A stretch of 7,285 nt of DNA from Paraspadella gotoi. Taxonomy: Eukaryota; Animalia; Chaetognatha. Below, one piece after another: positions 201 through 6,371 of this stretch. The notes under the pieces were generated by a model. The model did not search any database and was not told the DNA's origin. It saw only the letters and a program-made list of their open reading frames with translations. Made by a program: the position numbers and the translations under genes. Every line of letters begins with the position of its first letter. Positions within the stretch are counted from its first letter, which is position 1. The DNA lies in the NCBI GenBank assembly GCA_051294375.1, contig JBJCIZ010000136.1:1-7285 (forward strand), read 5' to 3'.

Positions 201-253
201 TGATAAGTTAATACCAATTGGGGGTTAATTTTACTTCCTCTGACCGCGGTAAG
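201..253 (+). repeat. Dispersed repeat, TIR-like motif copy 1
   Basis: TGATAAGTTAATACCAATTGGGGGTTAATTTTACTTCCTCTGACCGCGGTAAG aligns with 664-715; the core 222-253 matches 684-715 at 27/32. Confidence 0.7.
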
Positions 254-909: not shown

Positions 910-1271
910 AAAATCTTTACTATACTATATTTAATATATAAGTATATCATTAATTGGAGAACTACTGGACTTTTTTATGTATAAGTTTTATTTCGAGTTT
1001 AATTCATTTACTATTTTATGTTTAATTTGGGTAACTTTACTATTCGACGTACAAAACCAACTTTAGCTACCACCGGTCGGTNNNNNNNNNNTCCATTTAA
1101 TTTTGTTTTCCCTCTCGTGTAGAGTCTCAGTTTGCGAAATAATAATATACATTTTTTGGTTCAGTAATATAAATTTTATAATAAATAAATTTTTAAAATT
1201 TATTTTAATTGCCATTTTATGTTTGAAGTAGAAAATGAATTGTTTATGNNNNNNNNNNATAAAGAAACAAA

Positions 1272-1315
1272 TTTCGGATATATTTCAGCCTCTATGTAAG
1301 CTTTCATCAGCGCAA
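1272..1315 (-). ncRNA. Minimal type I hammerhead ribozyme-like motif (copy A)
   Basis: Minus strand reads TTGCG CTGATGA A AGCTT ACATAG AGGCT GAAA TATATC CGAAA. It has the core CUGAUGA (1310-1304), a 5-bp helix II AGCTT/AGGCT with one G-U, GAAA, a self-complementary ATATAT helix III, an AUC cleavage triplet (C at 1277) and a short helix I (CG/CG). Confidence 0.75.
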
Positions 1316-1413
1316 AAACAGATTTGTAAAACAAATAATTTTACAGACTTTTTTCTTTCTTTCTTCAAACTTCAAAATTTGTGAAAGTATTTGTTTCACA
1401 AATNNNNNNNNNN

Positions 1414-1458
1414 TTGCGCTGATGAAAGTTTACATTGAAGCCGAAACACGTCCAAAAT
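1414..1458 (+). ncRNA. Minimal type I hammerhead ribozyme-like motif (copy B)
   Basis: TTGCG CTGATGA(1419-1425) A AGTTT ACATTG AAGCC GAAA(1443-1446) CAC GTC(1450-1452) CAAAA. Core boxes are intact, helix II has one mismatch, the helix III hexamer ACACGT is near-palindromic, and AATAAA follows at 1470-1475. Confidence 0.8.
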
Positions 1459-1531
1459 TTATGTTTCTTAATAAAACTTATTGTACGTAAACAAACAAGG
1501 AAAAGAAAAGGAAAAACAATATTTTTTAAAC

Positions 1532-1730: not shown

Positions 1731-1891
1731 TTTAATTTTTTATATAACAATAAAATTGGCGAAAAAAGATTATTTTAAGTGTATTCGTGATTGCATTAAA
1801 ATATATCATAATCAATGGCGTATCTGAATTATAGTAATGTTTAACCAAAAGTTTTTATTAGTTTTTACAACGATTTGTAATTGACTTTGGT

Positions 1892-1934
1892 AACGGACAT
1901 GTTTCGACTAACGGGCTCGGTTATCAACAGCGTT
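1892..1934 (-). ncRNA. Degenerate hammerhead ribozyme-like motif (copy C)
   Basis: Minus strand reads AACG CTGTTGA TAACCGAGCCCGTTAGTC GAAA CATGTC CGTT. Helix I (AACG/CGTT) is a perfect 4 bp, helix III is the palindrome ACATGT and the site is GUC. The core has A6->U (CUGUUGA) and helix II is imperfect. ATCGTTGTAA and AATAAA follow, as in the other copies. Confidence 0.65.
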
Positions 1935-2374: not shown

Positions 2375-3434
2375 AAAAAATATCTGACTTTGTATCTTCC
2401 CTACTATGAGAACTCGAAAAACTAAAAATCTTGGTCTGTTTTTTCCTTCACTTACCAGTAAACAACACATCGAAGATTTTTTTAATCAGCAGTGCAGATA
2501 TGGTAACAAACTGAGTTTGACAAACAGTTTAGAAGAATTATTGATTAGACAATTTAATAAAATGCAATACTGACAGAGTCAATAACTCAGTTTCATCAAA
2601 ATTTAAAGGGAGGTCCAACTCTTTACAGAAACGGTAAAACAGAATAAAAATAAAAACAGAATGCCAGATTGTCGTTGTGGGTAAACGAAGGTGGCGAAGG
2701 AGATGGGAGCGTCGGCCTCTTGGTAGATATTTGAATCGATCGTCGACGTGACCTCGATGGAATGGGTTTGGATGCCGGAAAAGTCAAAGTATTTTATCCC
2801 GTGGTATTTTCTAAAATTATTAAATAAATTGGTATCAATTTTTATTCTTAATAATTCAATTTTCTCTAACTTAACATGTTTAACAATCCAAAGCAAGCTG
2901 GCAGACCAACGACCAAAACGCCGGAGCCCCCGCGCCGTAGTTGTACTGGTTCTGATGATTGTTGCTCTCTGGAGGATTTGTTGTAGTCCACGTTGGCGAG
3001 GTCAAGGAGGAAATTCTTCAGCATCATTTGACAAAGTTTGATGTCGAGATTTGGATTCCAAAAGGTGAGTGAAGGGACGACGCCGGAGTAAACAGCGTCG
3101 CGAAGAGGGATGGAGAATTGATTCACCTTTGTTAGGGGGGAGAAGAGCAAATTAATTTATGAAATAATGTAGTGAGACGGAAACTATTCATGCCATTTGA
3201 AAAAGCTAATTTCAAGGATATTCTTTGGAGAAAAACAATTACATTTGTATTTGTTTTTATCAACGAATTGTATTAGACATTAGGACATTTTCTCCAAATT
3301 TTAAAACAACGAAACTGAAAGTCTACACACGAGGATATTCTTTTAATTCGACGTATTTGATAATTTGATCCAGTTTTAAGATTTTTGAGAAAAAATCAGG
3401 ACACGAATAAAAATAAAAACTATTGAAGAGACAG

Positions 3435-3584: not shown

Positions 3585-4094
3585 NNNNNNNNNNAACGGT
3601 TGGTGGATTTTAGTCCACCATACTATAAAAATTATTTTTATAATTTTAAGTTGCTGTCAAAAATTAATCACGGTGAAAATGTATCAAAATTTATTAATTT
3701 AAAAAATCAGAACTTACAAATTCATACTGTAGTGTACTCACCATTCAAAAGTCCAGCAGCGTCGCGTAACGGATCAGAAGGGAGAGCAAGGACTGTCTCT
3801 TGGGTAAGGAGAGGTAAAAATTTTGGAACAAGTCTTGGTGGCGTAGCTGCTGATCGAATCCAACGGAGCGGACAAGAAATTCATTTCCAATTCGGGAGTG
3901 AGTAAACTTTGGAGGAAGAGACGCCGAGTGCATGTACAGTTGTACACATTACCTTGAAGGGTTGTAACAAATCCATTTTAATTGATTATTTTATATTACA
4001 TTATGCTTATTTATTGAATGCATAAATAATTTTTATATTGTTTAACCAATTTTTTGACATCCTTAAATTCAGTCCAATTTTTATAACCTTTATT

Positions 4095-4319
4095 TTAGCA
4101 AAGTTTTTCGAATTTTTTACAACGNNNNNNNNNNTGAAAAAGCAGACATGTTTCGGCTCACAAATGTCAAGAGCTGATGAAGGCTCGAAATNNNNNNNNN
4201 NAACATGTCTGCTTTTTCAAAAATAAAATCATTGTAAAAAATTCAAAAAACTTTGCTAATCTCTTACAACNNNNNNNNNNCTAATCTCTTACAACAACGA
4301 AAGAAAGGATTATACCATG
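4095..4319 (+). mobile_element. Short hammerhead-bearing retro-insertion with inverted 5' arm and 13-bp target-site duplication
   Basis: 4095-4160 is the reverse complement of ~4202-4259 plus the gap. The perfect direct repeat TATAACCTTTATT at 4082-4094 and 4320-4332 abuts the start of the inverted arm. AATAAA lies at 4222-4227. Confidence 0.8.
4171..4215 (+). ncRNA. Minimal type I hammerhead ribozyme-like motif (copy D, interrupted by an assembly gap)
   Basis: GAG CTGATGA(4174-4180) A GGCTC GAAAT [N10] AACATGTC(4202-4209). The inverted arm at 4135-4160 reads TGAGCCGAAACATGTCTGC on the minus strand, which supplies the missing GAGCC-GAAA and gives a perfect GGCTC/GAGCC helix II. Helix I pairing is poor. 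Confidence 0.75.
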
Positions 4320-6119
4320 TATAACCTTTATTATATTACGTCTATTTTTCCTTTAAACATGAAATGAAGAATTTGAACCTCTGGTTAAATTTATATTTTT
4401 CAACCCATTTTAAAACAATAACATAAAATTGGAACTGATTTTAATTTATAATATTTAGCATATTTTTGCTATTTAATACGGAAATAAGGTGAATAAAACA
4501 GAAATAGGCCTGAGGCACCTCCCCGGCGAACGAAGACGATATATAGCGGAAGGATTTAGGAGAATGTCCGTCCAGTGGGCGGAGATGTTATGGATCCTGG
4601 CGATGGAGGGCACGAAAGTGGCCAAGAGGCGTTTGTAGATGCCCGGTAGTGGTGCCAGCTTCTTGACACGATCGATTCTCTCTTTGTGAATGTAGATGCT
4701 AAAAAATATGTTTAATGTGCAAGAGATTGAAAAGCTACTAAACTACTTAAATCCTCTCTATTATTTTATTGCCAATAAAATGGCTTTTGTTACTTTACAT
4801 CGCATTACTTCTCAATCAGATGACTTTAGTTCTGTGTGGTCACGGGACTACGCAAGTATAAAACCTAAGCATAAGAAGCAAAGCAACAGAGAACAAACAA
4901 ATATAAATTACAGAGTAGCTGCGCAAAACATTGTCAACAAACTAAAAAAAAGCCCAGTTAATTATATTTTATTTACTATTATCATTATACAGGGGTGGGA
5001 CCATATATCAAAACAAAATTTAAAAAATCATTACTCTAAAACTCTTAATGAATTTTAAAATCAGAATAAATATTTGTATAATACTCTCACTAAGCTTTTA
5101 GACGATATATTAATCTTTTTGAAGTTTTTTGATATAATGCTTTTTTTNNNNNNNNNNAGGCAACTGCTCGGTTTTCTGAATATCTAAATAAGCGTCAACC
5201 ATTTATTGTTGCAGAGAAGAGTCAAGTAACAACAATATCTATGTACTATAGTTGAGCAACTCAAGGTAACAGGATTGCTTTCTTGCCATTTATAAAATTT
5301 ACTTAACATCTTCAGTCAAAAAGAAATTCACCTCGGTCTGAAAGCAGGCGAGTAGCAGTAATCAATGCGGGCGGCGGCGGCCAGCGCCGAGGGTGGGACG
5401 AGCGCCGGCTTTGCGACAGCGGCGAAGCGTGAGACGATTCTCCAGTCCGCTCTTTGATCACAACGCGCCAAGCGTCAGATTCCTTCACCCTTCATATTCA
5501 CATATTTTTTTATACGTAATGATCAAAATACTAGATTCAAATAATCGATACACTATTAGAAAATTAACCTGAAGATCCAAAGTAGCAACGCCGTGCAAAT
5601 TAAACATGGCAGACTTATTCTCTGCAATGAAAATCCGCAAGGCGAAGAGCGCCGAGGCCTGAAGGTTGAGTCTCGGCGTCGACATGGCGCCAAATGGACT
5701 CGGTAGGTGACGGTATCAGGGTTGGCATTAAAAAACCCACCCGTCGTTTTGCAGAATGTCTTGCACCTCGATCCCGTGGTTTGCCTCCGTGACGCCGTCC
5801 TTTGTCATCTTCGTCGCCACTCGGGNNNNNNNNNNTGACGGAGCGATCGTCGAGACTGCGATCGTTGCTGGAACGTGAACGACGCGTGTGGCGCTTGTGG
5901 TACTGATCACGATTTGGACAGTCATGGATATTATTAATACGCTCAGGAGGCTTATGAAAAAAAGGAATAGAAAGAAAATGAAATTTTTTCTTTTTTACAT
6001 TAAATTATATTAAAAACGTTAATAAGCTTCATGGGCAAAAAAATTCTTGTCAATTCTTTTTAATTCTTTAAAAAAAATATTAGTATTTATATATTTTTTT
6101 ATTGTATTTGATAGATATT

Positions 6120-6371
6120 TATAAAGTAATAATTTTTATTTGTGATAATTCGAACATGTTTCGGTTCTTTTTTTTTTCTTGAGAGAGAGCAAAAGAGAAA
6201 GAAAGGGGCAATTTTAACTTTAATATATATCTCTTTTTCAAAGTTAATATCAAATATTTTTTTAAAATTGTCAAAACCTTGCGCTGATGAAGGTTTGAAA
6301 AAAAAAACCGAAACATATCCGAATTATTAAATGATCATTGTAATCACAAATTTATACTTTGTTACTTTATA
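6120..6371 (+). mobile_element. Hammerhead-bearing element with partial inverted arm
   Basis: The revcomp of 6120-6175 (AAAAGAACCGAAACATGTTCGAATTATCACAAAT...TTACTTTATA) matches 6298-6371 (AAAAACCGAAACATATCCGAATTAT[17 nt]CACAAAT...TTACTTTATA). The layout is the same as at 4095-4319. Confidence 0.68.
6279..6324 (+). ncRNA. Minimal type I hammerhead ribozyme-like motif (copy E)
   Basis: TTGCG CTGATGA(6284-6290) A GGTTT G(A)n AAACC GAAA(6310-6313) CATATC CGAA. Helix II GGTTT/AAACC is perfect, the site is AUC (C6319) and helix I is CG/CG. The helix III hexamer ACATAT has one mismatch, while the inverted arm retains ACATGT. Confidence 0.78.

What the first reader, a model, noticed from the sequence alone, without database searches (positions are those of the whole stretch)
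4082..4332. Complete ~225-bp non-coding insertion: inverted arm + hammerhead + poly(A) signal + tail, inside a perfect 13-bp TSD
Seen: TATAACCTTTATT flanks 4095-4319 exactly. Inside, a partial reverse-complement copy starting in helix II precedes the forward hammerhead, AATAAA and an unpaired tail of roughly 35-60 nt (length uncertain because of the gap). It looks like a MITE, but the arms are asymmetric and the right TSD lies beyond the repeat. Inference: this is a target-primed retro-insertion with an inverted pseudo-LTR, either an extremely 5'-truncated Penelope-like copy or a tiny non-autonomous ribozyme retroelement. It sits in a predicted intron of the minus-strand pseudogene.
Basis: partly seen in the sequence, partly recalled or inferred. 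Interest (0 to 1): 0.75.

Follow-up and report, generated by a model that had tools for sequence, protein, structure and literature searches.

The report
Back-to-back Penelope retrotransposon stub
This 225-base insertion with an exact 13-base target duplication holds two back-to-back scraps of a hammerhead-bearing repeat, likely the end of a Penelope-type jumping gene copied from both cut DNA strands in one event, which would make it an ordinary, very short example of a known kind of insertion.

Summary
The anatomy is real. A 13-bp direct repeat (4082-4094, 4320-4332) brackets a 65-nt inverted arm, a forward copy with a minimal type I hammerhead core, and a one-sided tail. Contigs of public runs place the repeat's limits exactly at 4095 and 4319. 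Three other-locus copies end at the same two points, which is the two-start-site tail signature published for Penelope-like elements (PLEs). An unrelated metagenome contig shows the same layout with its own 13-bp duplication, and the window holds two older hammerhead pairs. This matches published endonuclease-bearing PLE insertions (inverted truncated copy, 30-40-nt tail, target duplication) at very small size. The poly(A) signal is not supported. The ribozyme is predicted to be weak, and neither end lies at its cut site. Three things stay open: the inner order across three N runs, an empty site, and a parent element with RT and endonuclease (no genome is held). A dedicated non-autonomous family is therefore not excluded. 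This scan has noted the same kind of stub before on other DNA (32 findings in at least 15 genomes). Verdict: real, new member of a known kind, low interest.

The parts
4082..4094 (.). Left copy of the 13-bp target-site duplication
   Evidence: Exact repeat, two copies only; chance about 3e-4
4095..4159 (-). Inverted, 5'-truncated arm without tail; carries the 3' half of the hammerhead (helix II 3' strand, GAAAC, ATGTC) but no CTGATGA; contains one N run; may extend a few bases further right
   Evidence: 46 of 48 called bases match the forward copy; an X2 contig ends 30 nt inside it and another copy in X9 ends at 4095
4160..4259 (+). Forward copy of the repeat end, starting about 14 nt upstream of the hammerhead core
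   Evidence: Sequence; arm alignment
4174..4209 (+). Minimal type I hammerhead motif: CTGATGA, extra A, helix II 5' strand, N run, palindromic ACATGT, predicted cut after C4209
   Evidence: Motif scan; two-strand fold forms helix II but traps C3 in a shifted helix I
4260..4319 (+). One-sided tail: 60 nt as assembled, 35 nt if the 25-nt period around the N run is counted once
   Evidence: Other copies end at 4318 (X9) and 4319 (X5); X2 and X5 contigs start 30 nt inside it; 15-mer repeated across the N run
4320..4332 (.). Right copy of the 13-bp target-site duplication
   Evidence: read without differences in X2 and X5 contigs
3745..3952 (-). Context: broken INTS3-like exon next to the AT-rich interval that holds the insertion
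   Evidence: Pfam Ints3_N E=3.9e-6; PDB INTS3 E=2.9e-4; 61% over 33 aa to P0001 at 3864-3766; in-frame stop soon after

Best explanation
This is a real insertion, likely a very short stub of an endonuclease-bearing Penelope-like retrotransposon, likely built in one event when both nicked DNA strands primed copying of the element's hammerhead-bearing end. Inferred steps: a GIY-YIG endonuclease nicks the AT-rich target 13 nt apart. One strand primes at the outer start site (4319) and is copied about 160 nt, to just past the hammerhead. The other primes at the inner start site (equivalent to 4259) and stops after about 65 nt in stem-loop II. The two copies are joined head to head and gap filling yields the TSD. 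The tail is the distance between the two start sites. The template was not cut at this hammerhead, since the forward copy spans the cut site. The stub encodes no enzyme and is likely dead. The host pre-mRNA strand (minus) carries only the 3' half of the motif and could not self-cleave.
For: Shown: exact 13-bp TSD and arm identity. Contigs with no differences stop 30 nt inside the element on both sides, where a 31-mer graph would fork if the repeat spans 4095-4319: X2 on the left, X2 and X5 on the right. Three other-locus ends lie at 4318, 4319 and 4095. L001 shows the same layout: 274-nt insert, head-to-head hammerheads, 32-nt one-sided tail, 13-bp TSD. Three full hammerhead cores with paired helix II lie elsewhere in the window, in two inverted pairs with different stop points. 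Published: inverted 5'-truncated copy and 30-40-bp tail at either end (PMC8557442); a shorter inverted pLTR with a 31-bp tail and 9-bp TSD, head-to-head most frequent (PMC3846280); opposite-strand minimal hammerhead pairs 100-700 bp apart, ascribed to truncated PLEs (PMC4209133); the PLE protein cuts and extends both strands, prefers ATT, starts at two internal sites whose spacing is the tail, and does not need ribozyme cleavage (PMC11167929). The TSD here ends in ATT.
Against: No parent with RT and GIY-YIG was seen: no genome is held, and neither metagenome hit shows a long reading frame beside the motif (longest 131 and 93 aa). No empty site appears in the rows shown for 6 runs, but the loose-end tables were cut by 389 and 32 rows. 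The left junction is seen only in X2, which the tool flags as possibly the source DNA. The inner order across the N runs is unverified. The tail is 60 nt as assembled, longer than the published 30-40. 5' stop points across the family were not measured. L001 and L002 share only the hammerhead core with this element, so they are analogues, not family members.
Confidence: 0.8

Rival explanations
1. A discrete non-autonomous PLE parasite: a short non-coding RNA starting about 14 nt upstream of the hammerhead, copied in trans by a PLE protein by the same two-ended route. The forward copy would then be full length, not truncated.
For: Fixed 3' ends in other copies; no parent seen; pLTR sequences suffice for mobilisation in trans (PMC3846280); non-autonomous PLE derivatives are described (PMC8557442; bioRxiv 10.64898/2026.07.22.740005).
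Against: Fixed 3' ends are expected of ordinary PLE copies too (PMC11167929). The other pairs in the window and L001 stop at different points relative to the core, although they are other families. The frame from the ATG at 4177 stays open through the forward arm, as a pLTR holding an ORF start would, but chance is 0.06-0.11.
Confidence: 0.13
2. Partial mis-assembly: the flanks and TSD are right, but the inner pieces between the N runs come from another copy or are wrongly oriented.
For: Three N runs lie inside 225 nt, the arms are multi-copy, and one N run is flanked by a repeated 15-mer. No contig spanning the element was seen.
Against: Both outer junctions are in contigs and already have opposite orientation. 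The head-to-head junction lies within one called piece (4135-4191). The N run in the left arm equals the 10 bases of the right arm, and another N10 is spanned without gaps by two contigs. L001 shows the layout in gap-free DNA.
Confidence: 0.05
3. A DNA MITE with long terminal inverted repeats, moved by a transposase.
For: Long inverted arms, no coding capacity, multi-copy.
Against: The right arm is 35-60 nt away from the right TSD. Other copies end at either of two points. The arms carry hammerhead motifs. A 13-bp TSD is longer than usual for MITE superfamilies (recalled).
Confidence: 0.02

Closest known systems
Insertions of endonuclease-bearing Penelope-like elements with inverted pseudo-LTR and tail (Adineta vaga Pen2a, PMC3846280; general scheme in PMC8557442; D. 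virilis Penelope, PMC2377424)
   Same: Head-to-head inverted copy shorter than the direct one, tail on one side only, TSD around the whole unit, AT-rich target. Penelope pseudo-LTRs can carry one or two copies of the terminal 34-37-bp repeat.
   Different: No ORF body at all (225 nt against kilobases), TSD 13 bp against 8-10 bp in the rotifer examples, inverted arm stops inside the hammerhead, parent not seen.
Minimal type I hammerheads of metazoan PLE pseudo-LTRs, including opposite-strand pairs 100-700 bp apart (PMC4209133)
   Same: Core CUGAUGA, extra nucleotide after position 9, G10.1-C11.1, short palindromic helix III, poorly formed helix I, opposite-strand pairing.
   Different: Only one arm has the whole core; helix II is 5 bp; canonical helix I has a mismatch at its second pair and an alternative register is predicted to trap C3.
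Poseidon of Anolis carolinensis, in vitro mechanism (PMC11167929)
   Same: Two fixed 3' end points separated by a tail; ATT at the target; copy spans the uncut ribozyme; possible ORF start within the hammerhead region.
   Different: That work did not show joining of the two products into a TSD-flanked head-to-head unit in the parts read; the clade of this element is unknown.
Metazoan non-LTR retrozymes (PMC7229834; bioRxiv 10.64898/2026.07.22.740005)
   Same: Non-coding, about 225-350 nt, type I hammerhead, proposed PLE origin.
   Different: Retrozymes are head-to-tail tandem repeats with canonical hammerheads cut to monomers; this unit is head to head, single, with a minimal motif and ends away from the cut site.

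Membership tests
EN+ Penelope-like element insertion | 5'-truncated inverted copy joined head to head at the 5' end | tested here: met
   46 of 48 called bases; outer junctions in contigs
EN+ Penelope-like element insertion | One-sided 30-40-bp tail | tested here: inconclusive
   One-sided tail present; 35 nt if the 25-nt period is counted once, 60 nt as assembled
EN+ Penelope-like element insertion | Two fixed 3' end points shared among copies | tested here: met
   Other-locus ends at 4318, 4319 and 4095; only three such ends seen, tables cut
EN+ Penelope-like element insertion | Target-site duplication around the whole unit | tested here: met
   13 bp exact
EN+ Penelope-like element insertion | Empty site with a single copy of the duplication | tested here: inconclusive
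   None in the rows shown for 6 runs; several runs do not cover the site
EN+ Penelope-like element insertion | Minimal type I hammerhead in the terminal repeat | tested here: met
   Core pieces called in the forward copy, 3' half complete in the inverted arm; no Rfam hit; activity untested
EN+ Penelope-like element insertion | Parent element with RT and GIY-YIG endonuclease ending in this sequence | not testable with these tools
   No genome held; contigs of runs cannot be fetched as loci
EN+ Penelope-like element insertion | Variable 5' truncation among copies | not testable with these tools
MITE (DNA transposon derivative) | Terminal inverted repeats abutting the TSD on both sides | tested here: not met
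   Tail of 35-60 nt lies between right arm and TSD and is shared with other copies
Non-LTR retrozyme | Head-to-tail tandem units each with a type I hammerhead | tested here: not met
   Head-to-head, single unit
Non-LTR retrozyme | Unit defined by self-cleavage sites | tested here: not met
   Predicted cut after 4209 is 49 nt from the 5' end and 110 nt from the 3' end of the forward copy
Poly(A)-type LINE/SINE or retrocopy | Poly(A) signal close to an A-rich 3' tail | tested here: not met
   No A-tail before the TSD; AATAAA at chance level and 67-92 nt upstream

The most novel reading that the evidence does not exclude
The unit is the footprint of a dedicated short non-coding RNA that starts just upstream of the hammerhead and is copied from both target strands by a borrowed PLE protein. 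The forward copy would run off the RNA's 5' end, while the second copy stalls at the ribozyme's stem-loop II, as seen in two of the three pairs in this window. The hammerhead would then shape insertions as a folding barrier rather than as a cutter.
Probability: 0.12. Interest if true: 0.5.

Novelty: new member of a known kind. Interest (0 to 1): 0.2.

Why it matters
As it stands this is one more short Penelope-type insertion. Its use is as a clean record of the still unresolved PLE insertion step: a 13-nt stagger, two start sites and a head-to-head join in 225 bases. A count of junctions over all copies would test in vivo whether both target strands prime copying, as the 2024 in vitro work suggests. 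Such stubs can be mistaken for MITEs in repeat libraries.

Tried and rejected
Rfam at E<=1: no hammerhead family, one chance 7SK hit. No genome held, so no copy census. No RNA holder on record was listed; this says nothing on expression. Empty site: none in the rows shown; X6, X7, X8 and X9 have no listed long contig across the site, which proves nothing. Exact-pattern scans: 2 loci in metagenome contigs, neither with a long reading frame beside the motif; 1 locus in viral contigs, with a different 3' core among long phage-like reading frames, set aside as unrelated. Poly(A) signal rejected. Open frame from ATG 4177 kept only as a weak hint (p 0.06-0.11; the sister motifs close after 4 to 35 codons). 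TSD search around the other hammerhead pairs gave only low-complexity candidates. Summed contig depth over the arm and tail is about ten times the flank in X2 but is not a copy number. INTS3 homology of the blocks at 4476-4742, 3777-3977 and 2869-3156 was not found by Pfam or PDB search; 3126-3010 matched P0001 only at E=0.6. One fourth match of the loose hammerhead pattern (5273-5315) was not examined for helix II and is not counted. Look-ups of earlier findings near this place and by sequence were blank. Paper searches for a named family of such stubs listed 1, 2, 1 and 1 papers, none on one by title; subscription journals are not covered.

Full report
Observation. The window is AT-rich eukaryote-like DNA with 17 runs of N. 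The 13-mer at 4082-4094 recurs at 4320-4332 and nowhere else on either strand. In 200,000 simulations on flank composition such a recurrence within 120 nt had a frequency of 0.00033. The reverse complement of 4095-4159 matches the forward copy ending at 4259 at 46 of 48 comparable called bases and begins at the 3' strand of helix II. The forward copy starts near 4160, carries CTGATGA at 4174 and AACATGTC at 4202-4209, and continues 60 nt beyond the end of the arm to the right TSD. The 3' strand of helix II in the forward copy falls in an N run and is seen only in the inverted arm. Rfam reported no hammerhead.

What the N runs are is unknown. The one at 5826-5835 is spanned without gaps by a 421-nt contig of X5 and a 382-nt contig of X9, and the one in the left arm has the length of the matching stretch of the right arm, so at least these stand for ten bases. 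Of 17 runs, only the one at 4271-4280 has a long repeat across it, 15 nt; the others have 0-2. It is either a 25-nt duplication within the tail or an assembly join, so the tail is 60 or 35 nt.

Evidence from public runs. Nine runs from three studies hold the stretch 3600-4800; one is flagged as a possible source. On the right, contigs of X2 (333 nt) and X5 (753 nt, another study) align over their whole length without differences and both start at 4290. On the left, a 526-nt contig of X2 ends at 4124 without differences; the tool marks X2 as possibly the source DNA. Each contig reaches exactly 30 nt into the element. That is where a graph of 31-mers forks if the repeated sequence spans 4095-4319 (the word size is my knowledge of these contigs). 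Other copies share the ends: X9 has a contig leaving the tail after 4318 and X5 one leaving after 4319, and X9 has one entering the arm at 4095, each with unrelated flank. So the tail belongs to the element, and copies end at either of two points. No row shown gives an empty site, but 389 and 32 loose-end rows were cut, and X6, X7, X8 and X9 have no listed long contig across the site.

The layout recurs. A loose hammerhead pattern has 4 matches in the window against 0.00 expected in 200 shuffles. Three have a paired helix II and lie in two inverted pairs, 1269-1460 and 6145-6327; a further 3' half lies near 1906 on the minus strand. In the first pair both arms carry the core. In the second the inverted arm stops in stem-loop II, as in the focal element. 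Neither has a convincing TSD. An exact scan of metagenome contigs gave 2 loci. L001 holds a 274-nt insert with head-to-head hammerheads, a 32-nt tail on the inverted arm and an exact 13-bp TSD. L002 holds a single forward copy of that same family with the tail. They share only the core with the focal element, so the layout is general and not a mark of one family.

Ribozyme. The motif has the marks listed for PLE minimal hammerheads: an extra nucleotide after position 9, G10.1-C11.1 and a palindromic helix III (PMC4209133, parts 1-2 of 4 read). Folding the called 5' half with the 3' half seen in the inverted arm forms helix II. The canonical helix I is G-U, mismatch, G-C, A-U, A-U, at -6.9 kcal/mol, whereas a shifted register that pairs C3 reaches -16.0. 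In a + strand transcript the arms would also pair with each other (-26.6 and -29.3 kcal/mol). The minus strand lacks the 5' half of the core. The copy is therefore predicted to cut poorly or not at all; this is untested. Neither end of the insertion lies at the predicted cut after 4209. AATAAA at 4222 is one of 22 on the + strand, 0.49 are expected in the forward copy, and no A-tail follows.

Host. The block at 3748-3948 on the minus strand matches Pfam Ints3_N, solved INTS3 structures and P0001, an INTS3 protein, at 61% over 33 residues. An in-frame stop follows within a few codons, and the next block matches only weakly with a 14-residue gap (E=0.6). The insertion lies in the AT-rich interval upstream of a candidate acceptor at 3953. 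A decayed INTS3-like copy is thus supported; that the upstream block is its exon rests on recall.

Mechanism. Craig et al. describe PLE insertions as highly 5'-truncated, often with an inverted truncated copy at the 5' end and a 30-40-bp tail at either end (PMC8557442, passages). Arkhipova et al. show a shorter inverted pLTR, a 31-bp tail and a 9-bp TSD, with head-to-head the commonest arrangement, and explain it by self-priming (PMC3846280, passages). Cervera and de la Pena note opposite-strand pairs 100-700 bp apart and ascribe most single motifs to truncated PLEs. Frangieh et al. show that a PLE protein cuts and extends both strands, prefers ATT, starts at two internal sites whose spacing is the tail, and needs no ribozyme cleavage (PMC11167929, parts 1-2 of 4). 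From these I infer two-ended priming: outer start on one strand, inner start on the other, head-to-head joining, and fill-in of a 13-nt stagger. The anatomy is shown; every enzymatic step is inferred, and self-priming is not excluded as the source of the inversion. Also read: PMC2377424 (passages), PMC8969392 (passages), PMC7229834 (passages) and bioRxiv 10.64898/2026.07.22.740005 (part 1 of 5). No supplements were read; those of PMC4209133 and PMC3846280 may list such short units.

Rivals. A MITE fails on asymmetry and on the two alternative ends. A retrozyme fails on orientation and on ends away from the cut site. Mis-assembly of the inner pieces cannot be excluded, but both outer junctions already face opposite ways. 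A dedicated non-autonomous RNA cannot be told from extreme truncation without a copy census, and no genome is held.

Novelty. The kind is published. Four targeted searches listed no paper devoted to such ORF-less stubs as a named family, within a library that lacks most subscription journals. This scan has 32 earlier findings with the same words in at least 15 genomes; these are unchecked notes and not evidence. Verdict: real, a new member of a known kind, interest 0.2.

Noticed in passing
window 1269-1460: Older head-to-head pair in which both arms carry a full hammerhead core, with an inner palindrome (1322-1351 / 1374-1403); no convincing TSD.
   Followed up: partly
window 6145-6327: Another inverted hammerhead pair whose inverted arm stops in stem-loop II; many related contigs in public runs; TSD candidate is low-complexity.
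   Followed up: partly
window 1848-1930: Decayed minus-strand copy of a hammerhead 3' half and downstream sequence that resembles the focal arm.
   Followed up: partly
window 4005-4043: Short decayed scrap of a very abundant repeat: summed contig depth about 1000 times the flank in all four runs laid.
   Followed up: no
window 4986-5147: Abundant repeat with a sharp left end at about 4986-4988 and many unrelated flanks; the end looks like that of a TA-targeting DNA transposon (recalled).
   Followed up: no
window 4551-4709 and 5479-5568: Contigs of a second, about 89% identical copy of the GC-rich block, and contigs that skip 5480-5560 or 5480-5567, point to paralogues of the decayed host gene.
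   Followed up: no
window 201-253, 664-718 and 2340-2374: Three related 30-55-nt stretches, two direct and one inverted, possibly ends of another mobile element.
   Followed up: no
L001 3298-3597: Gap-free analogue in unrelated DNA: 274-nt head-to-head hammerhead insert, 32-nt tail on the inverted arm, 13-bp TSD.
   Followed up: yes
L001 1576-2165 and 78-872: A long near-perfect inverted repeat (161 + 74 nt, 99%) and a pair of 34-nt inverted ends around a 131-aa frame that looks transposase-like (recalled, not tested).
   Followed up: no
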